This document shows positions 5,719-28,886 of a stretch of DNA of 64,000 nucleotides, one piece after another. The stretch is from positions 5,472 to 69,471 of the IMG/VR virus record IMGVR_UViG_3300031420_000496. The stretch is one strand, 5' to 3'. A model generated the notes under the pieces. That model made no database searches. It saw nothing but the letters and a program-made list of their open reading frames with translations, and had not been told where the DNA came from. The stretch's first letter is position 1. Every line of letters begins with the position of its first letter. The DNA comes from a virus (Duplodnaviria; Heunggongvirae; Uroviricota; Caudoviricetes). Made by a program: the position numbers and the translations under genes.

Positions 5719-5726
5719 ATTAAAAC

Positions 5727-6036: not shown

Positions 6037-6041
6037 AAACT

Positions 6042-6116: not shown

Positions 6117-6306
6117 ATTGTTCGTTTGTTCATGTTGTCTCAATCAGATTCTCCTGAGTACGAGGAGTATATGCGACGGCTACCAACCTATGCATTTCCC
6201 ATTGTACCGCACTAGTCCTCTGTTGAACAGTCAAGGCGTCGGAAGCATAACCGGACTGATGGCAGTTACACGTACTCGCACATGAACAAGTTCTTACACC
6301 ATATTC

Positions 6307-6393
6307 TGGTGCGGATGATGGGACTCGAACCCACACGCCCTTTCGGGCATTAGGCCCTCAACCTAACGCGTCTACCAGTTCCGCCACAACCGC
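6307..6393 (-). tRNA. tRNA-Leu (GAG), class II
   Basis: E. coli Leu-like D-arm UGGCGGAACUGGUAGACGCG, loop UUGAGGG, long variable arm, CCA encoded. Confidence 0.75.
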
Positions 6394-6846: not shown

Positions 6847-6898
6847 TTGATAGACGCTCCTCAAAGAGGGTATTTATACGTCTATCAACGCGAATTCT

Positions 6899-6974
6899 TG
6901 GTGGCGAGGGGTGGATTTGAACCACCGTACCTCCGTCGCAATGACGGCCGCTCTAATCGCTGAGCTACCTCGCC
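6899..6974 (-). tRNA. tRNA (loop AUUGCGA, UGC; Ala-like anticodon but no G3:U70)
   Basis: acceptor GGCGAGG/CCUCGCC, CCA encoded. Confidence 0.7.
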
Positions 6975-6979
6975 TAAGT

Positions 6980-7054
6980 TGGTCGGAGTGGGGTGAATCG
7001 AACACCCGAGTTTCTGGTCCCAAACCAGACGACCTACCACTGGACTACACTCCG
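6980..7054 (-). tRNA. tRNA-Pro(UGG)-like, paralog A
   Basis: loop UUUGGGA; near-identical to 7423-7497 with compensatory stem changes. Confidence 0.7.
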
Positions 7055-7335
7055 ATTCTATCTTTGTAGCCCGGCGAATCTTGGAAGATTCCGTCGAGCC
7101 ACCATTCTGGAAAATTTCCATCAGCATACAGTTCCTTGACAAACAAGGTGCCGAGTGCAATGTCTTCTTTCCAGGATGTCACTGTCATGTTCAAGTAACC
7201 TTTGCCGATGAGGTATCCGTTTTTCGGATTCACTCTCGTGCCATAAGATTCGCTGTTGAACATTTCGAGTAATGCTTCATCGCTGAAGTCTAACCCTGTC
7301 CAATGTCGAGCGAAGTATTTGTATAACTCCGCCAT
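7045..7335 (-). CDS. hypothetical protein (flanked by paralogous tRNAs)
   Basis: ORF MAELYKYFARHWTGLDF..; 3' end overlaps tRNA by ~10 nt. Confidence 0.45.
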   Translation of the reverse strand: MAELYKYFARHWTGLDFSDEALLEMFNSESYGTRVNPKNGYLIGKGYLNMTVTSWKEDIALGTLFVKELYADGNFPEWWLDGIFQDSPGYKDRIGV

Positions 7336-7422
7336 CCGTTTGAATTTCTTACTGACGCCGTTTACAGACGTACGTGGTTGACCCTTGTTGCGTTTAGCGA
7401 TGTCATAGCATCCTCCATAAAT

Positions 7423-7497
7423 TGGTCGGAGTGGCAGGAATCGAACCTGCGAGTTCATGGTCCCAAACCATGCGACCTACCACTGGACTACACTCCG
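7423..7497 (-). tRNA. tRNA-Pro(UGG)-like, paralog B
   Basis: anticodon stem CAUGG/CCAUG and T-stem GCAGG/CCUGC differ from paralog A by compensatory pairs. Confidence 0.7.
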
Positions 7498-7564
7498 ATA
7501 AAACAGAAACTGTCATTCAAAATAGCAACAAAAGTAGCTATCGGGAATTGTGCCCTTGACCACT

Positions 7565-7660
7565 GCACATTAAGGGAATCGAACCCTCTCGGTTTTTCAT
7601 CATAGTAAAAGTAGATAACCAATAAGCAAGCGGTTACTATTTTGGATGACAGCTTCACAA
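7565..7660 (-). other. tRNA-like remnant containing hairpin motif copy (T-arm present, acceptor not closable)
   Basis: GGGAATCGAACCC T-loop complement plus AGATAACCAATAAGCAAGCGGTTAC. Confidence 0.3.
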
Positions 7661-7666
7661 TAAACT

Positions 7667-7787
7667 TGGCTGAGGTCGTCCGGACTCGAACCGGATCTTC
7701 GCCTTTATGAGTGGATAACCAATCACAGGGCGGTTCATTGCTGAACAAAAATGCGCGATCGATGTTTTTCGCGTGCTAACCCTTACA
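7667..7787 (-). tRNA. elongated tRNA-like gene (~120 nt; CAU-type anticodon loop CUCAUAA) with ~45-nt insertion carrying hairpin motif
   Basis: acceptor UGAGGUG/GACCUCA (6/7), D-arm GUGUAAGGGUUAGCAC, T-arm UCCGG UUCGAGU CCGGA; insertion homologous to that in 9123-9262. Confidence 0.5.
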
Positions 7788-7957
7788 CTACACCTCAATT
7801 GTCGAACTCTAGCAGTTCGTAATGGATCACTATCCATCGCTGATGCTTGCTACCACAACCTTCCTCCTTGCACCGCTTTCGCGGTGGGCAGTCATGCGTG
7901 GCTTCATTTCAAGCGTGCCGCATTAAGTACGGCCGAGCATTCTTAAAAACACTTAGT

Positions 7958-8028
7958 AGCGGGTACACGATTCGAACGTGTGATGGCGAAGGCTTATGAG
8001 ACCCTGCTGGTGACCAGGCCCTACCCGC
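7958..8028 (-). tRNA. short tRNA-like gene (loop CUCAUAA, CAU)
   Basis: acceptor GCGGGUA/UACCCGC, T-arm ACACG UUCGAAU CGUGU; atypical D-region. Confidence 0.45.
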
Positions 8029-8093
8029 AACTAAGTATTCTCAAAGCTTGTCGAAGAGCAAGCATTATACACTGTTCTTCGACAAGCTGAATT

Positions 8094-8549
8094 TTATTTT
8101 TGAATCAAACGTCTGCTTAACTGACTATGGCAGTTCGGGCACAAGAACCGCAAGTTCTCAGCACGATCGTCCAGCCAATCTTCATTGATGTGATCGACGT
8201 CAAGCGTCAGTGGATGACCGTGCCATTCAGGCAGTTGTCCGCATTTCTCACACTCATGTTTCCTACCAATTTCCAACAAACTTCTGACAAGCTGTTCTGC
8301 TTTTGCTCGACCGCCGCTTTCTCGCTTCACAAGAATGTCTGCAGCATATTTTCGTTTGTGGCTAATCTTACCAGATGATGAAGACTTACCGAGCATGTGA
8401 CTCATGTCGAGACCGAGGTTTTTAGCACGACGCGTATAGTGGCCGTGCGATCCGCCTGCTTCTTTGATGCCGAGCTTGCGAAGCACTTCGCGGAACGTCG
8501 TGCTCGCTGCTACTGCTTCAGTCAGCATTTCATCGGTTATATTCTTCAT
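8094..8549 (-). CDS. HNH homing endonuclease
   Basis: LTLDVDHINEDWLDDR..LRFLCPNCH motif; start MKNITDEML. Confidence 0.85.
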   Translation of the reverse strand: MKNITDEMLTEAVAASTTFREVLRKLGIKEAGGSHGHYTRRAKNLGLDMSHMLGKSSSSGKISHKRKYAADILVKRESGGRAKAEQLVRSLLEIGRKHECEKCGQLPEWHGHPLTLDVDHINEDWLDDRAENLRFLCPNCHSQLSRRLIQK

Positions 8550-8561
8550 ATCACTTTTGTT

Positions 8562-8644
8562 TGGTGCGCCAGGTGGGACTCGAACCCACAAGGTTACTCG
8601 CTCTAAACGAGTCAGTTGTACCAATTCACATTATCTACTGGCGC
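8562..8644 (-). tRNA. tRNA (loop UUUAGAG, UAG; Leu-like anticodon) with enlarged D-region
   Basis: acceptor GCGCCAG/CUGGCGC, T-arm GUGGG UUCGAGU CCCAC, CCA encoded. Confidence 0.6.
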
Positions 8645-8649
8645 ATTGT

Positions 8650-8728
8650 TGGTACCCACGGCCGGAGTCGAACCGGCAGAATCACGATGTTTTGAGCATC
8701 GCCGCTTTGCCAAATTGCGTACGTGGGC
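8650..8728 (-). tRNA. class I tRNA with anticodon CAA (loop CUCAAAA)
   Basis: clean cloverleaf GCCCACG..CGUGGGU, short variable loop; Leu anticodon on a non-Leu-type body. Confidence 0.65.
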
Positions 8729-8839
8729 ATTGTTAAAAAGAGTGTTCGACTGGGTAACAAAATGTCCAGCTCACCAACACTCGAAAAAGAGAGGAACAAA
8801 AAGCGTCAATCGGTAATGTCCTCTGAGAGGCAACCGTTT

Positions 8840-8990
8840 TCACGGTCTGAGCGGATTCGACACCCTCTAACTGACCGAAGCCAGTATTTCACCTGATAAC
8901 CAATTAACAACGGTTCCATCATTTGAGGTCTCTGCTTCAACACCCAGTGTCTTAGGGTGAAGTCGTGTATAACTACTTTTCCAGCAGTCT
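8840..8990 (-). other. structured tRNA-like element with hairpin motif copy (not a clean tRNA)
   Basis: TGATAACCAATTAACAACGGTTCC motif plus GGATTCGAC T-loop-like segment. Confidence 0.3.
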
Positions 8991-9040
8991 ACCGGTATTT
9001 CGCCACAGCGGATGACTAGTCCGTCAAAGACCTTAAATGA

Positions 9041-9114
9041 TGGAGCGGGTATGGGGAATCGAACCCCAGTCTTAAGCTTGGAAGGCTTCAGCTCTACCAT
9101 TGAGCTATACCCGC
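9041..9114 (-). tRNA. tRNA-Gly (UCC)
   Basis: very similar to E. coli tRNA-Gly2 (..CCUUCCAAGC..), CCA encoded. Confidence 0.8.
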
Positions 9115-9122
9115 AAGAATTC

Positions 9123-9262
9123 TGGTGGAGTTGGGTAGGATTCGAACCTACCTAAGCCAGAGGCGCGCCATTTACAGTGGATAACCAATTAGCGAGCGGT
9201 TGTAGAAACAACAAAGATTTGCAATCGATGTTTACGTGGGTTTTCCAATTCCCTACAACTCC
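9123..9262 (-). tRNA. elongated Tyr-like tRNA (~140 nt; loop CUGUAAA, GUA) with ~60-nt insertion carrying hairpin motif
   Basis: acceptor GGAGUUG/CAACUCC, D-arm GGGAAUUGGAAAACCC, Tyr-like variable arm CGCCUCUGGC, T-arm GUAGG UUCGAAU CCUAC. Confidence 0.5.
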
Positions 9263-9449
9263 ATAGTGGTCAATAGCTATTAGAGGTGACCACGTCTCTA
9301 ATACGGTACTCGGTCAAGCGGAAATCGACGAGCCATCCAGGGATTTTTTAATCCGGCCTAAACTGGCACCCTGCGTTTGATCGCTGTACACGCACGTCCT
9401 TCACAATCGAATTACGATCGTCTTTTGTCCATAACGTATACAGCAAACT

Positions 9450-9524
9450 TGGTGGAGGATAACGGGATCGAACCGTTGACCTGATGCTTGCAAAGCACCC
9501 GCTCTCCCAGCTGAGCTAATCCCC
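9450..9524 (-). tRNA. tRNA-Ala (UGC)
   Basis: close to E. coli tRNA-Ala (GGGG.U.UAGCUCAGCUGGGAGAGC), G3:U70, loop UUUGCAA. Confidence 0.8.
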
Positions 9525-9532
9525 CAAATTCG

Positions 9533-9781
9533 TTACCGCTGTTGAAAACAGCGATAGATAAACGTTACCATTTCACGTTCGAGTTCTGCATCGGACAGAC
9601 TGTCGATGTAGTCGTTCGTGAGATGTGCAAAACGCCCTGGGCGTTTGCCTGTGGCAAAATCTGATTGACGACTTTGCGATCCATGTGTCATGATCGGTCG
9701 CGGAGTATCTTCACTGGTACCGAACTCCGCGTCGAAGCGTAACTTCTTGAACAGCGTTTTTGCGTCCATCACATTCTCCAA
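9533..9781 (-). CDS. hypothetical small protein inside tRNA island
   Basis: 82-aa ORF between two tRNAs; no recognisable domain. Confidence 0.3.
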   Translation of the reverse strand: MENVMDAKTLFKKLRFDAEFGTSEDTPRPIMTHGSQSRQSDFATGKRPGRFAHLTNDYIDSLSDAELEREMVTFIYRCFQQR

Positions 9782-9791
9782 AATATAAACT

Positions 9792-9883
9792 TGGCGGAGG
9801 ATAAAGGAATCGAACCCTCACCGAGGGTTGGCCCCAGTGGGACGGATTTCAAGTCCGCGTCTGCACCTTGCAGCCTATCCTCC
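9792..9883 (-). tRNA. tRNA-Ser (UGA), class II
   Basis: acceptor GGAGGAU/AUCCUCC, loop CUUGAAA, long variable arm. Confidence 0.7.
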
Positions 9884-9980
9884 ATATCTGTCACAGCACT
9901 CCGACGACTAACTCGTATTTTTTCAACGTTCTTCATCGTGCTGTGTCTGGCCACGTATTGCTACGTAGCTTCGCGAATTC

Positions 9981-10054
9981 TGGTACCCACGAGTGGAATC
10001 GGACCACTGTATCTGCAATGTCAATGCAGCGCTCTGCCATTGAGCTACGCGGGC
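9981..10054 (-). tRNA. tRNA-Val (GAC)
   Basis: acceptor GCCCGCG/CGUGGGU, loop UUGACAU, CCA encoded. Confidence 0.8.
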
Positions 10055-10059
10055 AAATC

Positions 10060-10125
10060 TGGTGGAGCGTAGGGGACTCGAACCCCTCCTACCGCAGTGC
10101 AAGTGCAGCGCCTACCCCTGTAAAC
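10060..10125 (-). other. truncated tRNA-like element (T-arm and CCA present, 5' half too short)
   Basis: GGGGUUCGAGUCCCC T-arm and encoded CCA but only ~60 nt. Confidence 0.3.
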
Positions 10126-10241
10126 ACCCCATAATCAAAGCGCACTCAAGTGTGCTGCTTACACTAAACTCATTGAGTTCCCTTTGTCCACGCGATTCGG
10201 GTCGTCCTGATGGACGGGACTACAAGAGTACGCTTTGATTA

Positions 10242-10324
10242 TGGTGCACGCCACTGGAATCGAACCAGTTCAGCCAAAGGCCACTGCTTTACAGGCAGCT
10301 TATCTCTCCAAGGATAGGACGTAC
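10242..10324 (-). tRNA. tRNA-Tyr(GUA)-like
   Basis: acceptor GUACGUC/GGCGUGC with two G-U pairs, loop CUGUAAA, 13-nt variable arm. Confidence 0.6.
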
Positions 10325-10332
10325 AAAATGTG

Positions 10333-10557
10333 TTACCACTTCAAAATTCGACGAGCACAATTCAGAATTGCTTGTGCAAGATCGCTTTGATTTTTTACGC
10401 CAGCACATTGAAGCGCTGCCGCAATTTCAAACTTGGTCATGTCTGCGTGAAGCAGACGTTTTACTTGTTCAGCTTTGCCGTCGAAGTGATCCGAAAACTT
10501 TTCGATCGTAAGATCAATCGCTTGTGCGAATGCTGCTGTTACCCTGACGTCTGCCAT
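10333..10557 (-). CDS. hypothetical protein
   Basis: 74-aa ORF, no domain recognised. Confidence 0.4.
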   Translation of the reverse strand: MADVRVTAAFAQAIDLTIEKFSDHFDGKAEQVKRLLHADMTKFEIAAALQCAGVKNQSDLAQAILNCARRILKW

Positions 10558-10784
10558 AATATTCTCCAGTTGATGAGAGAATTATACATCACAACGAATT
10601 TAAAGCACACTGTTAAAAGCGTCGCAGCTTTATCTGTCCGTCTCACACCGGCCGATTTACTCGGCCATGTTTACCATTCCAGTGTACCAAATCAATATGC
10701 ACTGTGCGAGAAAGGAGTTGAACCTTTCATGCGCTAATGTATAGCTGTTCTTACCACTTGAACTATCGACAGTGCATATTGATT

Positions 10785-10860
10785 TGGTGGTTCCTGCAGG
10801 AGTCGAACCTGCGACCTAATGCTTGTAAGGCATCCGCTCTACCAGCTGAGCTAAGGAACC
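10785..10860 (-). tRNA. tRNA-Val (UAC)
   Basis: acceptor GGUUCCU/AGGAACC, loop CUUACAA, CCA encoded. Confidence 0.8.
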
Positions 10861-14751: not shown

Positions 14752-15276
14752 TTAGTTTCCTTTAAGTTTGTTGATGATGTTACGACCGACTTTGTTGAGT
14801 GCCTTGAATTTGATCTTGAAAGACGTGCTTTCAATACCTCCGAACATTTCAGCGTTGGCATGAAGTTCACTGAGTGCCGTGAGCAGAAGTGCTGGTGCGA
14901 GGTCCATGCGATCGTATCCAGCAGCGTCCGCTGGCTTGATCGTGTGCATGTCCATATCTCGCTGGATGAGTTCGGCGATCTGCTCACTTCCGCCGTTGAC
15001 TCGCCAGATCGCTGCGCTGATGCGCGCGTGGTCTGGAAAGTGTTGGCGACCTTCATCGTCAACGGTTACACAATACGGCTTGCCGCAATCGTGGTAGATG
15101 TGGTACTGCTCCATGATTTCTGCCGGTGGGCAGAGTGGCAGCAGGTAATCCAGATCGAACCAGTCCGGCAGTCGCCATTCCATTTTCTGTTCGCCAATGA
15201 GGTCTTTGTATCGGGCCGCAACGGCTTCGCCATGCTGGAGGATCGTTTGACCCTTCGACTGACTACACGACGACAT
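14752..15276 (-). CDS. hypothetical protein, possible HD-domain phosphohydrolase
   Basis: H..HD..H..H..D-like spacing (QHGEAV, YHIYHDCGKP, FPDHARIS); weak. Confidence 0.45.
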   Translation of the reverse strand: MSSCSQSKGQTILQHGEAVAARYKDLIGEQKMEWRLPDWFDLDYLLPLCPPAEIMEQYHIYHDCGKPYCVTVDDEGRQHFPDHARISAAIWRVNGGSEQIAELIQRDMDMHTIKPADAAGYDRMDLAPALLLTALSELHANAEMFGGIESTSFKIKFKALNKVGRNIINKLKGN

Positions 15277-15309
15277 CTTTTCGCGGAGAACCTAGAGGTG
15301 ATGAGCGTT

Positions 15310-15345
15310 CATTTGCATTTCCTTATTTGTCAGCTAATGCTTATA
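15310..15345 (-). promoter_or_regulatory. conserved ~33-bp promoter/leader-like motif (copy 1)
   Basis: TTCCTTATTTGTCAGCTAATGCTTATATTTCT; near-identical copy at 47903-47938, both just upstream of a minus-strand start. Confidence 0.45.
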
Positions 15346-15352
15346 TTTCTTG

Positions 15353-15590
15353 TTAGTCGAACAGCGTATGCAGAGCGTGGTACGTGTCGTCGGTATCGTA
15401 ATCGCCGCAACCCATGTAACGACTCCAATGGACTTTGATCTGCCCGTCTTCCATGGAAATCGATTGGATATGTTTCTCTTCAAACGTACCAGTTCCCCAG
15501 CCAAAGATTGGCGGAGTGATTCTCGACTTGTCGATCGACTCGATCAGTTCTTGATACAGGGAGGCAATCGCCTCGGCTTGGTTGAGGTTC
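15353..15590 (-). CDS. hypothetical protein
   Basis: ORF from MNLNQAEAIASLYQ. Confidence 0.45.
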
Positions 15591-15948
15591 ATTGCTGTTC
15601 TCCTTGGGTAGGCAGACGCCAGAGCTGCAAGCCCTTTGTCAAATGTCGTTGGTCTTCGGTGAGGATGCATGCGATCGCGGTCAGTCCCCATTCCTGGTAC
15701 GGCTCGTGAAATTCGGCTGTAGGAATGCCTGCATCGTTCAGCTTCTGGCGGAGCGATTCAAGTTGCGACTTGTTTTTGATCGTGAGGTGAATGTACGACG
15801 GGTGGTGATCCACTGGTCGGCCATACGTGTAGGCGTGTTCAACGGCAGCGTGGCCGGCTTGAATAGCCTGTTGCGCGAGTGGGAGGTCTCGGCGCGAGAT
15901 GGTGTAGAGGTACGTCTTTTGCGGTTTGGAAATCTAGAGCTTATGCAT
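15589..15948 (-). CDS. PTH2-like peptidyl-tRNA hydrolase with in-frame TAG at codon 5
   Basis: RRDLPLAQQAIQAGHAAVEHAY matches PTH2 core VVRTDLKMGKGKIAAQCSHAA; RBS AGGAT then ATG CAT AAG CTC TAG followed in frame by the domain; no canonical start downstream of the TAG until past the motif. Confidence 0.55.
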
Positions 15949-15983
15949 GATATATCCTAAGTGTGGTGGTCCCATTTTACGGG

Positions 15984-16015
15984 CTCGGCAAGGGACCTCG
16001 GCCGAGTTTTATTTA
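15984..16015 (+). terminator. intrinsic terminator-like hairpin (plus orientation)
   Basis: CTCGGC-aagggacctcg-GCCGAG followed by TTTTATTTAT. Confidence 0.4.
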
Positions 16016-16074
16016 TACGAAAAAATTGCTATAAAAATAAGTCCAGTGTGCTGATACGCCAAATGCTCTAAGGG

Positions 16075-16320
<246 letters not shown>

Positions 16321-16389
16321 TTTTATAACAACTTCATACTGCGTGTTCCATAAATACCTGATTCGATTCTAACACAAACAGGATATTAC

Positions 16390-16653
16390 GTGAGCCTACT
16401 TAAAGAACTAATTCAACTGAACGAGGAAATCAAGGGTCTTGGCGATCCGTCATTCTACAAGGTCAAGAACGTTGAAGAATATACGGACAACGGCAAGAAA
16501 CGTGTCAAGTTCAAAGGTTACAAAAAGCGTAACGGCAAATTCGTTTCAGTCGGATACTTCTCCGCACCAGCCGGTACACCCGAAGACAAACTCTGGAAGG
16601 AAATCGACAAACACTTCCAGAAGCATGACGACGGGGTAGAAGACGACGATTAA
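16390..16653 (+). CDS. hypothetical protein (plus strand, GTG start)
   Basis: RBS AGGAT before GTG; Lys-rich 87 aa with acidic tail; convergent with small minus ORF. Confidence 0.45.
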   Translation: MSLLKELIQLNEEIKGLGDPSFYKVKNVEEYTDNGKKRVKFKGYKKRNGKFVSVGYFSAPAGTPEDKLWKEIDKHFQKHDDGVEDDD

Positions 16654-16815
16654 CGCTTCAGCAAAGCCTTAGCATCCTCGATTGCTCCATACCAGAACTC
16701 GCCGCCATCATCGCAGCAATCGAGGTGATCCACACAGCCCACATTGTGGGCTTCTTTCATTGCGGCAACCAGTCGTTCGACCATTGCCTCCAGTTCTTGT
16801 TCACGCGTCATTTGA
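16645..16815 (-). CDS. hypothetical small Cys-containing protein (56 aa)
   Basis: MTREQELEAMVERLVAAMKEAHNVGCVDHLDCCDDGGEFWYG.. Confidence 0.3.
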
Positions 16816-17176
16816 AAATTCTTGCGATCAGGTTGAAAATCGAAATGCCGAGTCTCACGTTCGCCTTCGATGCTCGTGCTTCAGCGCGAAGTTCTGCTCG
16901 CTCTGCTCTGGCTTCTCGCCGAGCTTGAGCAGGCGTAAGTCCGCTGTTGATCAACTGTTGCACTCGCACTTCATGGTCCACGTCATCCTCCGTTAAGTTC
17001 AGTGACGGCCGGAGCTAATCCCGGCATGTGATACTTTATCAGGAATCCCGCATCTCACTTTCATGAGGCAGCTTCGGACGCCAAGGAAGAGTTGTATGCG
17101 TCCACCCTTATGAACCGCTTCTCCGGTCTGTATCACAACCACAAGTTTCGCGTATTAGCTTACGCATTCGTCACAT

Positions 17177-17295
17177 AACTGGATATTGGATTCGAACCAA
17201 TGACGCTAACCGTAGGGAACATTCACACGAGAATGCTGTATCGGTTTCGGTATCACGTGCCGCTGCACGCCGCTCTCCCACTGAGCTAATCCAGT
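17177..17295 (-). tRNA. elongated tRNA-like gene (~119 nt), CCA not encoded
   Basis: perfect acceptor ACUGGAU/AUCCAGU, universal D-arm AGCUCAGUGGGAGAGC, T-arm AUUGG UUCGAAU CCAAU; about 45 nt extra in anticodon/variable region. Confidence 0.5.
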
Positions 17296-17327
17296 TATGT
17301 GGAACCTCTTGCGAGGTCCAGGCCGCG

Positions 17328-17510
17328 TTAGCCGAGCGTGCGGGTCGTCGGCTTGCCTTCGTCGAGGAAGGTGGCGAACAGCTTGCCCTTGCTGACGTAG
17401 GCCGAAGCAGCGAACTCGGCGCTCAGCTTGCGAGCGGCCGATTCCTTCGTGTTGCCGGTGCTCAGCAGGTGGCGGGCGCGGTCGTTCAGTTCACGGGTAT
17501 TGACGGTCAT
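17328..17510 (-). CDS. hypothetical protein
   Basis: 60-aa ORF. Confidence 0.35.
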   Translation of the reverse strand: MTVNTRELNDRARHLLSTGNTKESAARKLSAEFAASAYVSKGKLFATFLDEGKPTTRTLG

Positions 17511-17539
17511 GTTCAGTTCCTTTAAAGTTGACTACAAAA

Positions 17540-17764
17540 TTAACGACGACGAATGAAGTATCCGCCTTCGTGTTCCGACTGACATCCTACACAACGAGTG
17601 CAGGATGGGTATGCTTCACGTCGCAGTTCAGGAATCGGCTGGTCGCAATCTTCGCATTTTGCTTTGCCCGGCGCCGACAAGATCGATTCGAGAACTGCGC
17701 GACGGTCTTTTACCGTCTGCTCGATCTGTGCTTGAAAATCGTCTTGTGCGCCCCAGCCCTTCAT
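17540..17764 (-). CDS. TraR/DksA-family C4 zinc-finger protein
   Basis: CEDCDQPIPELRREAYPSCTRCVGCQ four-Cys motif typical of phage TraR-like proteins. Confidence 0.75.
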   Translation of the reverse strand: MKGWGAQDDFQAQIEQTVKDRRAVLESILSAPGKAKCEDCDQPIPELRREAYPSCTRCVGCQSEHEGGYFIRRR

Positions 17765-17771
17765 GTACTGC

Positions 17772-17847
17772 TCCTAAATTCTGGTGCCCCGTGCGGGGAT
17801 CGAACCCGCAACCCTCGGTTTTAGAGACCGCCACTCTGCCAGTTGAG
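17772..17847 (-). tRNA. amber suppressor tRNA (anticodon CUA), Trp-like body
   Basis: clean cloverleaf GCCUCGU..ACGGGGC-A-CCA; anticodon arm GCGGU-CUCUAAA-ACCGA matches E. coli tRNA-Trp CCGGU-CUCCAAA-ACCGG except C35->U. Confidence 0.7.
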
Positions 17848-17927
17848 CTAACGAGGCTTAATCTGTACTGCCTGTTTCGTTCAGTGGAATCATTATACCC
17901 GGTTCACACTGTCTTGCACAGCCTTTT

Positions 17928-18218
17928 TCAGGCTTCGTGGAGCGAGATGCTCGACGGGTTGTTCCATTCCCAGAAGCAACCGTTCGCCTTCGCGAATGCT
18001 TCCAGCTTCGGGTCGATGTACGAGTAACCACCGCGGAACTCGCCGTAGTAGTCGATCGCACCGAGACCGTCATCGCTCGTCACCATGAGCACGCCGTTCT
18101 TCACGAAGCAATCGCAGCTGACTTCGACATCGTCGTAAGTCTTGCGTTCTTTGTCCCACTTGAGACTCGGGAACTTGATTTCTTTGCATTCTGCTTCGAG
18201 GACGTTGACGTTTTTCAT
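17928..18218 (-). CDS. hypothetical protein
   Basis: 96-aa ORF. Confidence 0.45.
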   Translation of the reverse strand: MKNVNVLEAECKEIKFPSLKWDKERKTYDDVEVSCDCFVKNGVLMVTSDDGLGAIDYYGEFRGGYSYIDPKLEAFAKANGCFWEWNNPSSISLHEA

Positions 18219-18282
18219 TTTGCGCTCCGTGATTCAGTAGAGATATTCTACCCGAACCATCACAGCTTGCACACAGCCGAAC

Positions 18283-18747
18283 TCAAATAATTGTTGGTGG
18301 CTTCTTGCCTTTGAATTTGCTGCACGCGAGATGCAACCACACAGTGACAAAACTGCCGGTGTTCTTTGGATTCTTGATGGATGCAATATTGGTGCCGGTT
18401 GCCAGCACTTCACCGTCGGACGCGTACACTGTCGACTTCTCGATGTTGAACGTGTCATCATTGCATTTCGCTGCTACTTCATTGACGTAGTAAGCACCGA
18501 GCTTTGTTTTACCGGAAATTGCAAATGGTGTTCCGAAGTCCATCTTCAAACGTGACAGCAGTTCGAATCCATTGTGGCGGACGATCAGCTTTACGGACTT
18601 GGTGTCGATGTCGATTTTGAAGTTTGGTTGGTCAACCACGTTGGACCAGGCGGGAGTAATCAGCGGTGCAGCGGTCTGTGGCGTGGCCACTCCCGGCATT
18701 GCGATTAAGGCCGCGAGAGTGACGCTTGCTACAAGTGATGCTGACAT
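18283..18747 (-). CDS. hypothetical secreted protein
   Basis: N-terminal signal peptide-like segment. Confidence 0.5.
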   Translation of the reverse strand: MSASLVASVTLAALIAMPGVATPQTAAPLITPAWSNVVDQPNFKIDIDTKSVKLIVRHNGFELLSRLKMDFGTPFAISGKTKLGAYYVNEVAAKCNDDTFNIEKSTVYASDGEVLATGTNIASIKNPKNTGSFVTVWLHLACSKFKGKKPPTII

Positions 18748-18764
18748 TTGCCTGTCTCCTGAGG

Positions 18765-18890
18765 GGAATGCAGAACGCCTTCACTGAAGAGCTTTGAAGT
18801 CCTACTTCCTATAAAGTAGGGGCAGGCAATCACTCGCCCGAGCGCGTTGCTGCAGCAACGTCCAAAGTTCTTCAGTGAAGGCGTTCACTG
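18765..18890. repeat. nested palindromes (24-bp inverted repeat arms plus two internal hairpins)
   Basis: GAACGCCTTCACTGAAGAGCTTTG .. CAAAGTTCTTCAGTGAAGGCGTTC, with CCTACTTCCTATAAAGTAGGG and CGTTGCTGCAGCAACG inside. Confidence 0.5.
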
Positions 18891-18895
18891 ATTTG

Positions 18896-19090
18896 TTACG
18901 GTTCTATTTTACCTCGGATGCCGAGAAATTTCACACTCTTTTCTGAATCGTCGCAGTTGTCCCCAGGATCGTATGGGCAGCACGGCTTGTGCCAAATCCA
19001 ATTGTCGATCCGTGGTTCATCACAACCTGGGCAGTAACCTTGAACTTCAGGTTCCTGCGTCTCCTGGGCTTTGTTCTTCGTTCCCATCAT
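18896..19090 (-). CDS. hypothetical Cys-rich small protein
   Basis: CPGCDEP..CCPYDPGDNCDD. Confidence 0.4.
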   Translation of the reverse strand: MMGTKNKAQETQEPEVQGYCPGCDEPRIDNWIWHKPCCPYDPGDNCDDSEKSVKFLGIRGKIEP

Positions 19091-19343
19091 TGCGCTCCTC
19101 AGCTAAGAAACATTTAAACGTGAAGACGGACCCGTCCTCATTCGTGCGTTTCTTTTTTCTCTTCTTGCCATGTACGAGCTTTCCACGTTTCTCAACGATC
19201 CCGTTGACGTAGGCATAGAAGCGAGGGTCGCTCTTCTTGAACTTCTTTGAGGCTTGTTCTTCAGCCTCTTTCCACCAGCGTTCGATATGATCCGCTGATA
19301 GCCCAGTTTCCTTGGCGTAACTTTTGACGACTGCGTTAGGCAT
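19047..19343 (-). CDS. hypothetical protein
   Basis: 98-aa ORF. Confidence 0.4.
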   Translation of the reverse strand: MPNAVVKSYAKETGLSADHIERWWKEAEEQASKKFKKSDPRFYAYVNGIVEKRGKLVHGKKRKKKRTNEDGSVFTFKCFLAEERNDGNEEQSPGDAGT

Positions 19344-19345
19344 GA

Positions 19346-19690
19346 TTATTTCTTCCCGTACAGTTCATCGAGAACAAGGTCAGTATCTTTCCGATCGTTC
19401 CAATCAGGCAGATCGTCGACGTTGGTTCCTTTTGGATAGGTTTTCTCTTCCCCTTCAAAATCTTCGATCGTGAGCGGTGCAGCCAATTCAATCTTGGTAA
19501 TCATGAACTGTTCTGGATGATTCTCGTCAAATGACGAGTTGTCACCATGGCGATCGCTGAATCCAGCTTCGTAGTCGAAAGTCACCTTGAGTTTCATCTC
19601 ACCCATGTTGTATGAGTCGATGGTGACATTCTTAGTATTGTTGGAGCTATCTTTACGCTTCGAGGAGCCGCGGATTTCGTGCAGTTTCAT
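19346..19690 (-). CDS. hypothetical protein
   Basis: 114-aa ORF. Confidence 0.45.
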   Translation of the reverse strand: MKLHEIRGSSKRKDSSNNTKNVTIDSYNMGEMKLKVTFDYEAGFSDRHGDNSSFDENHPEQFMITKIELAAPLTIEDFEGEEKTYPKGTNVDDLPDWNDRKDTDLVLDELYGKK

Positions 19691-19725
19691 AGTTGATCCT
19701 AATTGTTGGATCAGTTATTTATGCC

Positions 19726-20121
19726 TTAACGCGCAACTGTTGTCAAAAGCATAGTTATGATGCAGATCAGCAACAGAACACCGCAGATAACTAGCATGAT
19801 CGGAAAGTCGCTACCGCCCTCGTTGTCGTCTGTTTTCTGCGAAGCGTTCAAGATTCGCTGTTGTGCGTTGCTAGCCTTGATTTCCCGCATTTGTGTAAAC
19901 GCGTCCCTGAGACGTTTGCCTTGCTCGTACGAGAAAACAGTGTTATTGCTACGGCCATTCCAGGTATCGGTAATTCCACTTCCACCAGTTGTGGAAATCC
20001 AATATTCGACGCCGGTCTTGGTGTCGGTCATCGTGTGGACGCCAACACTGAACCGGCCTGGGTTGTTCACCATGGCATAGCACAACTCGTCCACGGCTTC
20101 ATTCATGTAATCGAATTTCAT
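19726..20121 (-). CDS. hypothetical membrane-anchored protein
   Basis: C-terminal hydrophobic helix IMLVICGVLLLICIITMLL. Confidence 0.45.
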   Translation of the reverse strand: MKFDYMNEAVDELCYAMVNNPGRFSVGVHTMTDTKTGVEYWISTTGGSGITDTWNGRSNNTVFSYEQGKRLRDAFTQMREIKASNAQQRILNASQKTDDNEGGSDFPIMLVICGVLLLICIITMLLTTVAR

Positions 20122-20681
20122 TTTTGCAGACCTCGCGAAAGGAAGTGGCGGACGATGTAGCCCTGGAACGAGTCCTGGAATTGACGCGGACCCGCAAACT
20201 TCAGCTTGCGATGGGCTGATTCTTTGTTGCCAAGTTTGTTCAGGCTGTCTTCCAGCAAACCGCGCCAGAACGAATCCGAAATGGAGTACGTGTCTTCCGG
20301 CGCGGTGATGATGATCGTTGCTGGCGTTTTATCCAGATCATCCATGCCGAAGATGTCACGCGCACCCTGGCCAACTGGCTCGCCAGTATAGAGGTGATGA
20401 CCCAGCGGCAACTCGCTCAGATACACATACGCCACCAATTCGAGCGGATCAGCCTTCATGGCTTCTTCGTCACGTTGATGCATTGGACCTGGTTGACGAG
20501 CAACGTAATACTCGTCGTCCGGAATTGCCGTGACGGCAATCGAGTCCATTGTTTGAATGTACGGATCGCCCGGGTTTCGATACTTGACGACCGTGCACGA
20601 CGTCGATTCGCCGGCAGCTTGACGATCCAGTTTGGACAGCAGCGTCATCAGATTGCGACGGCTCAGATAAATTTGTTCCAT
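20118..20681 (-). CDS. hypothetical protein
   Basis: 187-aa ORF. Confidence 0.5.
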   Translation of the reverse strand: MEQIYLSRRNLMTLLSKLDRQAAGESTSCTVVKYRNPGDPYIQTMDSIAVTAIPDDEYYVARQPGPMHQRDEEAMKADPLELVAYVYLSELPLGHHLYTGEPVGQGARDIFGMDDLDKTPATIIITAPEDTYSISDSFWRGLLEDSLNKLGNKESAHRKLKFAGPRQFQDSFQGYIVRHFLSRGLQK

Positions 20682-20689
20682 GATTTTCC

Positions 20690-21920
20690 TTACAGTACTT
20701 CGTGGAGGAGTTGAACATCAGCAGCCGACGGACCGTACGATGCAGCACAGACTTCGATGCCCATGACTTTTTCGATGTACGCCAGCAGCTTCACCGACTT
20801 CAGCTTGAGCATGTCCTTGTTGCGGGTGACGATCGTCACGTGCTCGTCGAGTTGGTCGAGGCAGGTCACAAACAGCTTCGGCTGAAGAACCTCGACACCG
20901 AACAGCTGTGCAACGTGTTGGCCACGCTTCATGTCTTCGCGGATATACCATGCGAGCGCATGCAGATTCAGCGGAGCGTAACGGATCGAGCCTTGCCATT
21001 GGTTGTCGACGTTGGTCTTGTCGACCAGTTCTTTGTCGGTGATGGTTGCGCCTTCGTACAGCAGTTCGCCGGCACCGTGACGCGTCGCGTACGAACGAGT
21101 CATGTACACTGGACGGATCGACGTGCGACCGCATTCAGCTGCAGCGCGGATCGACGATGCGAGACCAGTAACGGAACGCGTGACGTGCGGGAAGTCGCCA
21201 AGGAATTCGTCGAGCATCAGGCCTTGTGCGCCTTCGACGACCACGACATCATCTTGTCCAAGGAACAACTTCGGATTCTGCAGCGACATGATGTCGCCAT
21301 AGTGCATCAGGTCTTCGACTTGCGTTTGGGTTTCGTCGAAGTACTCGAAGAAACGCATTGCGTCTTCGTTGCCTTCGAAGTCAGCTTTGTTCAGGCCGAG
21401 TTCCTGCATACGCTTCGGAACCCATTGACCGCGAATTTTCTGCAGGGCTTGTGCGATACCGAACTCGCTGCCTTTGATGGTTGCCATGTCGAGATGGTAG
21501 CCGGCCAGATCACGCGTGACGGTCTCGTTGATGCCCATGCCGCACGAACCATGACGTGCCGCACCGCGCTTGATTTCGATCAGCGAGTTGATGGCCATGT
21601 CGTAGTACGTGGTGACGCGGCTGTTGGGCGAGATGTAGACGCGTTGGCGAGTGCCGAGTTCTTTCAGCTCACGATTGAGCATGTACGGATTCGCGATGAA
21701 GCCGGAACTCAGATACGTTGGAACACCAGCGAACGCGCCGGAGCCGACGTGGCCGAAGACATGTCGCTTATCGCCATCGACGACAGTGTGACCAGCTTGT
21801 GCGCCACCATTGCCGCGAGCCACCATGGCTGCATTGTAGTGACGCGAGAAGAAGTCGGTTGCAAGGCCTTTGCCTTCGTCGCCATAACCGGCGCCGATAA
21901 CTGCGATAGATTTCGACATG
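20690..21920 (-). CDS. adenylosuccinate synthetase (PurA) family enzyme, divergent substrate loops
   Basis: GDEGKG P-loop, GNGGAQAGHTVV, VEGAQG, YATRHGAG motifs present; TTGRRRR aspartate loop and GTTGRGIGP IMP-phosphate loop replaced. Confidence 0.8.
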
Positions 21921-22102
21921 TTGATTTCCTTATTTTTTCGTGCAGGTTGCGAGTACGATCGAAGCCTGACCACGCAGACTTTCACGGTTTGCTTCCATGG
22001 CGGCGTTGCATGTGGCCTGCGAGTTGTACTCGACCTTCAGGGTTGCCACACCACCTTGGCTCATGCCGACGGTAAACACCATCGTGAGAATGTATGGAAC
22101 GA

Positions 22103-28070: not shown

Positions 28071-28886
28071 CTATTTGCGACGCTTTTTCTTCTTGTGCTT
28101 CTGCGGCTTCGGTGAGGGTTCGCCAGTGATTGCGCGACGGATTGTCCACGCATCTTGCATGCGAGCTGAACTCGATCCAGCATTGAGCAAGACGATGGTT
28201 GCAGTTTTACCAGCAGCGACGATTCTCATGACAAAGCATCGACCTGATTCTTCGATGTAACCAGTCTTTGACAGACGAATGTCCCAGCCGTTTGCGCCAA
28301 CTAATCTGTTGGTGTTCTTGAAATTTGTACCGTGGATTTGAACCAATTCGGTCGTGGTGATGCGGGTGATGTCTGGATATGCTGATGCCGCTATTGCGAT
28401 GATGGCAAGATCACGTGCGGTGGATACATTGCTTGGCGAGAGTCCGGATGGTTCTACAATCGATGTTCCGCGAAGTCCCAATGCTGCGATTTTCGCTCGC
28501 ATTGCTTCTTGGAATGCTGGTAGTCCGCTTGGATACGTTCTGCCCAGTGCAGTTGCAGCTCTGTTGTCGGAGTGCATCAGCGCGAGTTCCAACGCCTCTG
28601 CTCGTGTCATCTGCCAACCAACACGAACACGTGACATGCTGTGCTTGATTTCATCGACATCAGACTGTTGAATCGTAATTATTTCCTGCATGTTCTGATG
28701 TGCGTCCAGCACTACCATTGCAGTCATGAGTTTTGTCAGTGACGCGATTGGGCTGACGAGGTCAGGTTGTTTTTCGAACAACACTTGACCACCGTCTTCA
28801 ATAACGAACACTGACTGTGAGTTGAACTTCGCGGCAGAACACGTCGCTGAAATCATCCACAACAGAGTAACAAACAGCTTCTTCAT
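28071..28886 (-). CDS. D-alanyl-D-alanine carboxypeptidase/endopeptidase (S11, PBP5/PBP7-like)
   Basis: signal peptide, SLTKLMT (SxxK), SDN and KTG motifs. Confidence 0.8.
   Translation of the reverse strand: MKKLFVTLLWMISATCSAAKFNSQSVFVIEDGGQVLFEKQPDLVSPIASLTKLMTAMVVLDAHQNMQEIITIQQSDVDEIKHSMSRVRVGWQMTRAEALELALMHSDNRAATALGRTYPSGLPAFQEAMRAKIAALGLRGTSIVEPSGLSPSNVSTARDLAIIAIAASAYPDITRITTTELVQIHGTNFKNTNRLVGANGWDIRLSKTGYIEESGRCFVMRIVAAGKTATIVLLNAGSSSARMQDAWTIRRAITGEPSPKPQKHKKKKRRK

What the first reader, a model, noticed from the sequence alone, without database searches (positions are those of the whole stretch)
17772..17847. Phage-encoded amber-suppressor tRNA (anticodon CUA) built on a tRNA-Trp body
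This is a canonical cloverleaf with an anticodon loop CUCUAAA, so positions 34-36 are CUA and it would decode UAG. The anticodon arm (GCGGU-CUCUAAA-ACCGA) and D-arm are near copies of E. coli tRNA-Trp(CCA) with C35->U, like su7-type suppressors. Suppressor tRNAs in phages are linked to stop-codon recoding or regulated readthrough. It sits outside the main tRNA island, next to a TraR/DksA-like regulator gene.
Basis: seen in the sequence. Interest (0 to 1): 0.8.

Follow-up and report, generated by a model that had tools for sequence, protein, structure and literature searches.

The report
Conserved amber-suppressor tRNA in jumbo phage
A giant bacterial virus carries a well-formed transfer RNA that should read the UAG stop codon as an amino acid; related viruses keep the same gene, but the virus does not appear to have rewritten its genetic code, so this is a real but already-known kind of feature whose purpose is still unknown.

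Summary
The tRNA is real. The window comes from a 375-kb metagenomic jumbo phage distantly related to Ralstonia phage RsoM2USA and Xanthomonas phage XacN1, both already reported to carry CUA tRNAs of unknown purpose.

Four relatives, whose neighbouring protein is only 59-80% identical, keep a CUA tRNA just upstream of the same TraR/DksA gene. Their stems show compensatory changes, and in the closest relative a matching promoter is kept. The gene is therefore under selection.

It is not a tRNA-Trp derivative. Only the anticodon arm resembles E. coli tRNA-Trp. The acceptor stem and discriminator (G1-C72, A73) do not, and its nearest relatives are other phage CUA tRNAs.

I found no stop-codon recoding. 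In 83.6 kb of this genome no in-frame TAG joins coding segments. TAG is rare but still used as a true stop, in 2 of about 108 genes. Capsid regions of related phages that carry CUA tRNAs are intact in the standard code.

Best reading: a functional amber suppressor of a virus-enriched family, with its target unknown. It is a new member of a known kind.

The parts
17782..17857 (-). tRNA gene with anticodon CUA (amber-suppressor type), discriminator A73, CCA encoded
   Evidence: ARAGORN. Rfam tRNA 60.3 bits. Cloverleaf read directly from the sequence. Stems covary in 9 homologues.
17881..17920 (-). Sigma-70-like promoter motif: TGTGCA (17920..17915), a 17-nt spacer, TATAAT (17897..17892), then the conserved GATTCCACTGA. 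It ends 24 nt upstream of the tRNA 5' end.
   Evidence: The motif GGTATAATGRNTYCACTGA occurs 3 times in the window against 0.01 expected. The three copies also share the TGTRCA element. The motif is conserved upstream of the tRNA in relative L011. The generic promoter scan did not list it, because its -35 matches only 3/6.
17540..17764 (-). TraR/DksA-family C4 zinc-finger gene (74 aa). It starts 17 nt after the tRNA's CCA, behind an AGGAG ribosome-binding site, and is the conserved partner of the tRNA in relatives.
   Evidence: Pfam zf-dskA_traR E 1.6e-10. NCBIfam TIGR02419, 57.2 bits, just under its cut-off of 59.7. Synteny in L011-L015.
17328..17510 (-). 60-aa gene of unknown function, next in the same apparent transcription unit
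   Evidence: ORF with good codon score. Called in the source contig. No family match.
28071..28886 (-). Secreted Peptidase_S11 (DD-carboxypeptidase-like) gene, one of only two genes in the window ending in TAG. It is a possible substrate of the suppressor. The next gene lies in the same frame 17 codons downstream.
   Evidence: Pfam Peptidase_S11 E 1e-47, covering the whole profile before the TAG. The downstream gene has its own TATAAT, ribosome-binding site and ATG. Its homologue in L015 stands alone behind a different upstream gene.
52067..52642 (-). DNA-polymerase fragment gene (191 aa), the other TAG-terminated gene. An antisense homing-endonuclease gene (51547..52143, plus strand) abuts it.
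   Evidence: phrog_11778, E 1.7e-57, with the whole protein matched. The 63-codon readthrough extension has a negative coding score and no family match. Homing endonuclease phrog_314.

Best explanation
This is a functional, separately transcribed amber-suppressor tRNA. It belongs to a family of CUA tRNAs found mostly in viruses, and is fixed in one lineage of RsoM2USA/XacN1-like jumbo phages immediately upstream of a TraR/DksA gene.

Shown:
- The gene folds as a canonical elongator tRNA.
- The CUCUAAA loop is invariant while the stems change by compensatory substitutions.
- It has its own conserved promoter-like element.
- The phage reads its genes in the standard code in all the sequence I could reach.

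Inferred:
- The transcript is processed by host RNase P and 3' trimming.
- A37 is probably modified through the A36-A37-A38 MiaA signature shared by tRNAs that read U-starting codons.
- It is charged by a host synthetase. By E. coli rules a CUA anticodon with U35 attracts LysRS or GlnRS. A73, a strong G1-C72 pair and the absence of C31-G39 favour lysine over glutamine.
- It then competes with release factor 1 at UAG.

Because about 98% of this phage's genes end in TAA or TGA, the phage is largely insulated. The effect would fall on UAG-terminated host or competitor messages, on the two TAG-ending phage genes, and on amber mutations in the phage itself. Which of these gives the selective benefit is not known.
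For: tRNA calls.

Conservation at the same position in four relatives whose TraR/DksA protein is 59-80% identical; one relative carries two copies.

Among the 9 homologues all 21 stem positions are paired in most sequences except position 27-43. There are multiple two-sided changes, for example acceptor pair 6 as GC/CG/AT and T-stem pair 2 as CG/TA. The anticodon loop is invariant.

Outside the anticodon, its nearest relatives are other phage CUA tRNAs, including Xanthomonas phage XacN1 Sup1 and Sinorhizobium phage Phosso, not any canonical tRNA.

The promoter motif is present 3 times against 0.01 expected and is conserved in L011.

It gives only 51 stretches in 185,579 species genomes, nearly all of them MAG contigs.

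Standard code:
- No TAG joins two coding segments.
- Database gene calls on three pieces of the contig (overlapping at their edges) give 0 TAG stops in 100 calls.
- My calls give 2 credible TAG stops among about 108 genes in 83.6 kb.
- Capsid regions of two IMG/VR clade members that carry CUA tRNAs have coding density 0.84-0.92, an intact major capsid gene and no TAG junctions.
- The RsoM2USA structural region has 41 intact CDS.

Published precedent: XacN1 has two CUA tRNAs and 18 TAG stops, and in-silico readthrough found nothing (PMC5852040). RsoM2USA has one CUA tRNA (PMC8504454).

Lys/Gln competition for CUA tRNAs, with C31-G39 favouring Gln: PMC1483225.
Against: Nothing here shows expression, charging or readthrough.

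Only 83.6 kb of 375 kb of this genome could be read. All of it is early or metabolic genes, whereas recoded phages place in-frame stops mainly in late genes.

TAG rarity is only moderately significant. P(X<=4) is 0.10 at a 7% background and 0.011 at 10% when two doubtful calls are counted. It is also not shared by all relatives: TAG stops are 3/18 in L015 and 5/15 in L026. So insulation of the phage is not a general rule of the clade.

No benefit of suppressing host stop codons has been demonstrated for any phage.
Confidence: 0.65

Rival explanations
1. The phage uses TAG as a sense codon (genetic code 15 type) in late genes lying in the roughly 290 kb I could not read. The tRNA would then be the decoder for that recoding, as in crAss-like and Lak phages.
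For: The CUA tRNA is conserved. TAG is nearly absent as a stop in the early region. Recoded phages are known to confine in-frame stops to late genes and to carry CUA tRNAs (PMC13037316; PMC9523058, listed). This phage's own capsid gene was not among the 120 best homologues of the RsoM2USA capsid protein, so its integrity is untested.
Against: TAG is still used as a genuine stop twice in the window. The Peptidase_S11 domain is complete before its TAG. Two IMG/VR clade members with CUA tRNAs have intact capsid genes and dense standard-code coding around them. All 120 listed capsid homologues are full length under standard-code calls. RsoM2USA structural genes are intact and were confirmed by virion proteomics (PMC8504454). 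XacN1 uses 18 TAG stops.
Confidence: 0.07
2. The tRNA drives programmed readthrough of one or a few specific phage genes to make C-terminally extended isoforms. An example would be a fusion of the secreted S11 peptidase (28071..28886) with the in-frame 216-aa protein downstream.
For: The peptidase TAG is followed by 17 sense codons and then the next gene in the same frame. Readthrough would therefore give a 505-residue fusion.
Against: The downstream gene has its own TATAAT, ribosome-binding site and ATG. Its homologue in L015 stands alone after a different gene. The peptidase gene has atypical codon usage and is absent from the syntenic block of L015, which suggests recent insertion. Readthrough tails of 12 TAG-ending genes in this phage and its relatives run from 1 to 63 codons and show no coding signal. 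XacN1's authors found no homology beyond any of its 18 TAG stops.
Confidence: 0.1
3. The gene is a decaying or non-decoding tRNA: a mutated copy of an ordinary tRNA, a decoy for tRNA-cleaving host defences, or an RNA processing signal for the downstream TraR/DksA message.
For: It sits 17 nt before the TraR/DksA gene in all relatives but L014, where a homing-endonuclease-like gene intervenes, so a role as a processing punctuation mark is possible. The phage also carries RNA ligase, phosphoesterase and nucleotidyltransferase genes of the kind used in tRNA repair.
Against: A decaying copy would not keep CUCUAAA invariant while all four stems covary across 9 sequences and more than 100 viral loci. 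A processing signal or decoy would not need the CUA anticodon. In L014 a homing-endonuclease-like gene separates the tRNA from the TraR/DksA gene, and the tRNA is still intact.
Confidence: 0.05
4. C34 is modified (for example to lysidine, or an agmatidine-like base) so that the tRNA reads a codon other than UAG.
For: [quoted passage not shown]
Against: With U35-A36, a lysidine at position 34 would read UAA. UAA is the commonest stop in this phage (65 of 111 called genes), so this would be very harmful. No lysidine synthase gene was seen in the window. Established knowledge: TilS recognises the tRNA-Ile2 acceptor stem and the CAU anticodon.
Confidence: 0.02

Closest known systems
CUA 'suppressor' tRNAs of jumbo phages XacN1 (two copies) and RsoM2USA (one copy)
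   Same: Same broad phage group: the window's 427-aa protein is 40% identical to RsoM2USA and 36% to XacN1. All three have large tRNA complements, a standard genetic code and few TAG stops, and the target of the suppressor is unknown. XacN1 Sup1 is 73% identical to the window tRNA outside the anticodon and has the same CUCUAAA loop and A73. As here, the XacN1 suppressor genes lie apart from the main tRNA run.
   Different: In XacN1 they lie in the terminal repeat and not beside a TraR/DksA gene. The window phage shows no nucleotide-level similarity to any phage in the reference collection over 15000..21000, and the proteins compared are only 35-40% identical to those of cultured phages. The tRNA-TraR/DksA pairing, sometimes joined by a tmRNA, is specific to the window's own sub-lineage.
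Stop-codon-recoded phages (code 15, TAG read as Gln) with their CUA tRNAs: crAss-like and Lak phages, and some gut jumbo phages
   Same: A phage-encoded tRNA with anticodon CUA. TAG is avoided as a stop in early genes.
   Different: Recoded phages have many in-frame TAGs that break hallmark genes under the standard code (PMC13037316). Here there are none in 83.6 kb, TAG still ends two genes, and clade members have intact capsid regions.
E. coli su7 (supU), tRNA-Trp with a C35U change, which inserts glutamine
   Same: The anticodon arm is 14/17 identical and has the same CUCUAAA loop followed by A39. From established knowledge (Yarus' extended-anticodon work), this arm is near optimal for decoding UAG.
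   Different: The acceptor stem, discriminator (A73 against G73), T arm and variable region are unrelated. Overall identity is 0.60, no better than to many other tRNAs. The likeness is better explained by convergence on an efficient UAG-reading arm than by descent.
tRNA-Pyl (pylT), the label ARAGORN gives to any CUA tRNA
   Same: Anticodon CUA.
   Different: From established knowledge, pylT has a 6-bp anticodon stem, a 3-nt variable loop, a very small D loop and no TPsiC sequence. This gene has a 5-bp anticodon stem, a 5-nt variable loop, an 8-nt D loop with GG, and TTCGATC.

Membership tests
Canonical elongator tRNA | Cloverleaf with 7/4/5/5-bp stems, U8, U33, a 7-nt anticodon loop and a T loop TTCGA | tested here: met
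   Sequence parsing. Rfam RF00005, 60.3 bits against a gathering score of 29. ARAGORN.
Canonical elongator tRNA | Stems maintained by compensatory substitutions in homologues | tested here: met
   Across 9 homologues, the acceptor, D and T stems are paired in 8-9 of 9 sequences at every position, with two-sided changes. Only positions 27-43 and 31-39 are often mismatched.
Amber suppressor tRNA | Anticodon C34-U35-A36 complementary to UAG | tested here: met
   ARAGORN anticodon cta. It is invariant in all 9 homologues.
Amber suppressor tRNA | Aminoacylated, and inserts an amino acid at UAG in vivo | not testable with these tools
   Needs a reporter assay, an acid gel or mass spectrometry.
su7-type suppressor derived from tRNA-Trp | tRNA-Trp body: discriminator G73, A1-U72, and Trp-like acceptor and T arms | tested here: not met
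   The window tRNA has A73 and G1-C72, and its acceptor and T arms are unrelated to Trp. Identity is 0.60-0.61 to E. coli and XacN1 tRNA-Trp, against 0.63-0.89 to the other phage CUA tRNAs compared (0.70-0.89 for six of eight).
su7-type suppressor derived from tRNA-Trp | Anticodon arm of tRNA-Trp with C35U | tested here: met
   GCGGUCUCUAAAACCGA against CCGGUCUCCAAAACCGG, 14/17 identical.
tRNA-Pyl | Atypical pylT architecture: 6-bp anticodon stem, 3-nt variable loop, tiny D loop | tested here: not met
   Standard architecture.
Stop-codon-recoded phage (TAG as a sense codon) | In-frame TAG codons inside otherwise intact genes, with coding density restored when TAG is read as sense | tested here: not met
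   No TAG joins two coding segments in the window or in the 83.6-kb merged region. The one same-frame case, at 28071, is two separate genes. About 290 kb of the genome was not available.
Stop-codon-recoded phage (TAG as a sense codon) | TAG not used as a terminator | tested here: not met
   Two credible TAG-terminated genes, 28071..28886 and 52067..52642.
Stop-codon-recoded phage (TAG as a sense codon) | Accessory factors such as a phage release factor 2 or an aminoacyl-tRNA synthetase | tested here: inconclusive
   None were found among about 55 window proteins scanned or in the precomputed Pfam hits on the flanks. The rest of the genome was not seen.
XacN1/RsoM2USA-type jumbo-phage CUA tRNA | Carried by a jumbo phage of that lineage that uses the standard code | tested here: met
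   The source contig is 375,421 bp. The best cultured-phage matches of a phage-specific protein are RsoM2USA, Xoo-sp13 and XacN1. Clade capsid regions are intact in the standard code.
XacN1/RsoM2USA-type jumbo-phage CUA tRNA | tRNA sequence homologous to the published ones | tested here: met
   73% identity to XacN1 Sup1 outside the anticodon, higher than to any canonical tRNA compared. The RsoM2USA tRNA itself was not retrieved.

The most novel reading that the evidence does not exclude
The CUA tRNA could be one arm of a conserved phage module that rewires host translation termination. In this lineage it is kept next to a TraR/DksA regulator. In relatives it also sits near a phage tmRNA, and within 1.5 kb there is a conserved structured RNA whose 5' domain copies the L11-binding GTPase centre of 23S rRNA. 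If that RNA titrates L11 or the factors that dock there, RF1 action at UAG would weaken and the suppressor would become efficient. The effect would be selective corruption of UAG-terminated host or rival-phage proteins, while the TAG-poor phage genome stays safe and the tmRNA clears ribosomes that run off message ends.
Probability: 0.06. Interest if true: 0.8.

Novelty: new member of a known kind. Interest (0 to 1): 0.4.

Why it matters
CUA tRNAs in phages that otherwise use the standard code are an unsolved small puzzle. They were reported for XacN1 and RsoM2USA, and in-silico readthrough in XacN1 found no target.

This locus adds three things:
- The gene is not a sporadic mutant. It belongs to a virus-enriched tRNA family with an invariant anticodon loop and covarying stems.
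- It is held at a fixed position with its own promoter in one jumbo-phage lineage.
- The phage keeps TAG rare without abandoning it as a stop.

That makes a testable case for a selected function of amber suppression during infection that is not genetic-code change. It is not a new kind of element, and nothing here shows what the function is.

Tried and rejected
1. Reading the whole 375-kb genome.
- Only 10 kb beyond each window end could be fetched.
- A JGI metagenome scan with the phage's promoter motif found only two short contigs.
- The exact tRNA and the PurA-like protein found no close relative in IMG/VR.
- A search with the RsoM2USA capsid protein did not return this phage's own capsid gene among the best 120 of 3,494 hits.

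2. Naive longest-ORF gene calling on 118 viral loci was too noisy, because of shadow ORFs, to say whether CUA-carrying phages in general avoid TAG. I dropped that survey.

3. My first gene calls gave 1 TAG stop in 76 genes. A more permissive pass showed I had missed the S11 peptidase gene, so the figure was corrected to 2 in about 108.

4. blastn of the tRNA against E. coli genomes found nothing. I fetched E. coli tRNAs by coordinates instead.

5. Assigning the amino acid by similarity failed. After the other CUA tRNAs, the best matches are a mix of Cys, Arg, Val, Thr and Lys at 0.68-0.70. Acceptor-stem classes among 118 viral CUA tRNAs fit neither the E. coli Gln rules nor the Trp rules.

6. 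Rejected: tRNA-Pyl (ARAGORN's label), lysidine-modified decoding, and a decaying tRNA copy. Reasons are given under the rival explanations.

7. tblastn with the TraR/DksA protein against cultured phages returned mostly T4-like phages at 53% identity and gave no useful synteny.

Full report
**Observation**

ARAGORN finds 28 tRNA genes in the window, all on the minus strand. Twenty-seven lie at 214..10860. One is isolated at 17782..17857 with anticodon CTA. Rfam's tRNA model scores it 60.3 bits (E 1.5e-10, full length).

The gene has standard 7/4/5/5-bp stems, with a G27.A43 mismatch at the top of the anticodon stem. It has a 5-nt variable loop, discriminator A73 and an encoded CCA. It is identical in an independent assembly from another sequencing run. 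Seventeen nucleotides downstream, behind an AGGAG, starts a 74-aa gene that matches Pfam zf-dskA_traR (E 1.6e-10) and scores just under the cut-off of NCBIfam's TraR model.

**Where the window comes from**

An exact-protein look-up places the window at positions 282,944-346,943 of a 375,421-bp metagenomic contig (ena:ERZ27247433:k141_1209711). The same protein sits on contigs of more than 200 kb in three further blocks of the collection.

No phage in the reference collection matches 15000..21000 at the nucleotide level. A phage-specific 427-aa protein finds its best cultured relatives in Ralstonia phage RsoM2USA (40%), Xanthomonas phages Xoo-sp13 and XacN1 (36-37%) and Stenotrophomonas jumbo phages. 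The capsid protein family of that group is very large in metagenomes: 3,494 proteins, many on contigs of 340-371 kb.

Nearly all credible genes in the window are on the minus strand. Their functions are early or metabolic:
- a PurA-like enzyme, an NMN adenylyltransferase/Nudix protein, RNA and DNA ligases;
- a clamp loader, dCMP deaminase and DNA polymerase fragments;
- an ABC ATPase, a Band 7 protein, and OmpA-like and porin-like proteins.

**Is the tRNA under selection?**

Homologues of the TraR/DksA protein (59-80% identical) sit on short metagenomic contigs. Every contig examined has a CUA tRNA directly upstream of that gene:
- L011 and L012;
- L013;
- L014, where a GIY-YIG homing-endonuclease-like gene has been inserted between the two;
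- L015, which has a second CUA tRNA just downstream.

I parsed nine CUA tRNAs into cloverleaf positions: the window, these relatives, XacN1 Sup1 and Sup2, and Sinorhizobium phage Phosso. The loop CUCUAAA is invariant. The acceptor, D and T stems stay paired in 8-9 of 9 sequences at every position through two-sided changes. This rules out a decaying copy.

A promoter-like element lies 24 nt upstream of the tRNA: TGTGCA, 17 nt, TATAAT, then GATTCCACTGA. It recurs at only two other places in the window (3 matches against 0.01 expected) and is conserved upstream of the tRNA in L011. The generic promoter scan missed it because its -35 hexamer is weak.

**Is it a tRNA-Trp derivative?**

Aligned with E. 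coli tRNAs fetched from MG1655, the anticodon arm is 14/17 identical to tRNA-Trp. The D arm is no closer to Trp than to Lys (12/16 each). The acceptor stem, T arm and discriminator are unrelated to Trp: G1-C72 and A73 here, against A1-U72 and G73.

I then compared it with 74 tRNAs from the window, XacN1, Phosso, E. coli and the relatives, leaving out the anticodon. Six of the eight other CUA tRNAs (0.70-0.89) rank at or above every canonical tRNA; the other two score 0.63-0.64. A mixed group follows (Cys, Arg, Val, Thr, Lys at 0.68-0.70). E. coli Trp scores 0.60.

The phage CUA tRNAs therefore look like a lineage of their own. The Trp-like arm is best read as convergence on the arm that decodes UAG well. 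This rests on established knowledge: the extended-anticodon work on su7, and the A36-A37-A38 signature for MiaA modification.

ARAGORN's label 'tRNA-Pyl' only reflects the anticodon. The architecture is not that of pylT.

**Which amino acid?**

This cannot be tested here. In E. coli, CUA tRNAs tend to be charged by LysRS or GlnRS, and a C31-G39 pair shifts the balance toward Gln (PMC1483225). The window tRNA has U31-A39, A73 and a strong 1-72 pair, which leans toward Lys.

Among 118 distinct viral CUA tRNAs of this architecture, most have G1-C72 with A73 or G73. Few fit the E. coli Gln or Trp acceptor rules.

**Is the genetic code changed?**

A codon-usage gene caller trained on the window gave 76 genes with stops TAA 49, TGA 26 and TAG 1. 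No case was found where a TAG separates two segments that both look coding.

I then merged the window with the 10-kb extensions into 83,579 nt and lowered the threshold. This gave 111 genes: TAA 65, TGA 42, TAG 4. Two of the four TAG calls are doubtful: one ORF overlies two tRNA genes, and the other is a 42-codon plus-strand ORF. The database's own gene calls on three pieces of the contig (which overlap at their edges) give 0 TAG stops in 100 calls.

The two credible TAG-ending genes are as follows.
- A secreted Peptidase_S11 protein at 28071..28886. The Pfam profile is fully covered before the TAG, E 1e-47.
- A 191-aa DNA-polymerase fragment at 52067..52642. It matches phrog_11778 over the whole protein and is followed by an antisense homing-endonuclease gene.

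The gene after the peptidase happens to lie in the same frame. However, it has its own TATAAT, ribosome-binding site and ATG, and its homologue in L015 stands alone behind a different gene.

Both TAG genes sit in what look like recently inserted or rearranged stretches. The peptidase has a low codon score (9.3 for 271 codons) and is missing from the syntenic block in L015. That reading is an inference.

TAG is much rarer as a stop than its off-frame abundance on the coding strand would suggest (off-frame counts TAA 212, TAG 86). The depletion is still only moderately significant. With all four calls counted, P(X<=4) is 0.10 at a 7% background and 0.011 at 10%.

**Late genes**

I could not reach this phage's structural genes. 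Two IMG/VR contigs of the same capsid clade do carry CUA tRNAs: 358,444 bp (L026/L151) and 360,227 bp (L076/L211). Both have an unbroken major capsid gene. The 21 kb around it has coding density 0.92 and 0.84 under the standard code, TAG stops in 1/22 and 0/18 genes, and no TAG junctions.

The 50-kb structural region of RsoM2USA has 41 intact annotated CDS (TAA 23, TGA 16, TAG 2), including a 7.6-kb ORF. Its virion proteins were confirmed by mass spectrometry (PMC8504454). XacN1 uses TAG as a stop 18 times, and its authors found nothing recognisable beyond those stops (PMC5852040).

Readthrough tails of twelve TAG-ending genes in this phage and its relatives run from 1 to 63 codons with no coding signal. 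Relatives are not uniformly TAG-poor: 3/18 in L015 and 5/15 next to the tRNAs in L026.

**How widespread is it?**

ARAGORN confirms 130 CUA tRNAs in 115 of those loci, many on contigs of 100-600 kb. The same pattern hits only 51 stretches in one genome from each of 185,579 bacterial and archaeal species. Almost all of those are MAG contigs. The type is essentially viral.

**Verdict**

It is a new member of a known kind, the CUA tRNAs of standard-code jumbo phages. It is not a tRNA-Trp derivative, and I found no evidence of recoding or programmed readthrough.

The most likely mechanism is ordinary amber suppression in competition with RF1, from a tRNA with its own promoter, in a phage whose own genes mostly avoid TAG. 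The selective benefit is unknown.

**Seen in passing**

Relatives L011 and L015 carry a betaproteobacterial two-piece tmRNA just upstream of the tRNA module (127-129 bits). The window has none.

About 1.5 kb downstream of the tRNA, at roughly 16031..16325 on the minus strand, lies a strongly conserved structured RNA.
- Its 5' domain matches helices 43-44 of 23S rRNA, the L11-binding GTPase centre.
- It is about 88% identical to L011 over 400 nt. It shares blocks of about 94% identity with XacN1, where it fills an ORF-free gap.
- It has 25 compensated pairs in a three-sequence fold.
- Its core occurs in 100 IMG/VR stretches, usually beside tRNA genes but rarely beside a CUA tRNA.
- I found no paper describing it.

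It deserves its own analysis.

Noticed in passing
window 16031..16325, minus strand, plus a terminator-like hairpin at about 15984..16006: A conserved structured intergenic RNA. Its 5' domain copies 23S rRNA helices 43-44, the L11-binding GTPase-associated centre: 37 nt are identical to E. coli 23S 1052-1088, and Rfam's LSU model matches at 23.9 bits. It is about 88% identical over 400 nt to relative L011 and shares blocks of about 94% identity with Xanthomonas phage XacN1, where it fills an ORF-free gap. A 3-sequence consensus fold has 25 compensated pairs. The core motif is in 100 IMG/VR stretches, and 66 of the 80 fetched loci also carry tRNA genes. It is also present, unannotated, in cultured jumbo phages (Pectobacterium phage CBB, Yersinia phage fHe-Yen9-04, Serratia phage BF, Ralstonia phage RSP15, Erwinia phage Kaldavass). 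No paper was found..
   Followed up: partly
L011 44..453 and L015 9028..9362 (relatives; not in the window): Phage-encoded betaproteobacterial two-piece (permuted) tmRNA, Rfam RF01850 at 127-129 bits, lying just upstream of the tRNA-CUA/TraR-DksA pair in two relatives. ARAGORN also calls it in IMG/VR relative L037. The window phage has no tmRNA in the 64 kb. This hints at a betaproteobacterial host.
   Followed up: partly
window 214..10860, and L008 beyond the left edge of the window: An island of 27 tRNA genes interspersed with HNH endonuclease genes. No Lys, Glu, Asp, Asn, His, Phe, Ile, Arg or Trp tRNA appears in the 83.6 kb seen. ARAGORN gives a 'tRNA-???' with a 2-nt anticodon at 5049..5123. 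Rfam finds tRNA-like hits that ARAGORN does not call at 5585..5718 (134 nt, possibly with an intron) and at 3771..3839.
   Followed up: no
window 20690..21985, minus strand: A divergent adenylosuccinate-synthetase-like gene (Pfam Adenylsucc_synt, E 1e-38). It is 35-37% identical to genes that some phage records annotate as PurZ-type '2-aminooxy adenylosuccinate synthetase'. It scores far below the NCBIfam cut-offs for both PurA and PurZ, so whether it makes a modified purine is open.
   Followed up: partly
window 52067..52642 and 58246..58806 (minus strand); 51547..52143 (plus strand): A DNA polymerase III alpha-like enzyme is encoded as separate small ORFs about 6 kb apart. They match different parts of phrog_405. 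A homing-endonuclease gene on the opposite strand overlaps the 3' end of one piece.
   Followed up: partly
window 1970..2701, 35020..36672 and 28071..28886; L008 12893..13477: The phage encodes outer-membrane and envelope proteins: an OMP beta-barrel/OmpA_membrane protein, a 550-aa protein with an OmpA C-terminal domain, a Porin_4 protein, a YkuD L,D-transpeptidase and a secreted S11 DD-peptidase. This suggests remodelling of a Gram-negative envelope.
   Followed up: no
window 17881..17920, 49403..49442 and 61417..61456, minus strand: A shared promoter-like motif, TGTRCA-N17-GGGTATAATGRYTYCACTGA, present 3 times in 64 kb against 0.01 expected. Probably a class of strong phage promoters.
   Followed up: partly
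window 42132..43562, 44530..45393 and 49466..50506, minus strand: An RNA ligase (DRB0094 type with an N-terminal OB fold), a metallophosphoesterase and a nucleotidyltransferase. Together they could form an RNA or tRNA repair set.
   Followed up: no
L026 4429..9169 (IMG/VR contig of 358,444 bp, a relative): Five of 15 genes next to that phage's two CUA tRNAs end in TAG, mostly followed by another stop within 2-17 codons. The same phage's capsid region has TAG stops in only 1 of 22 genes. This is the opposite of the TAG avoidance seen in the window.
   Followed up: partly
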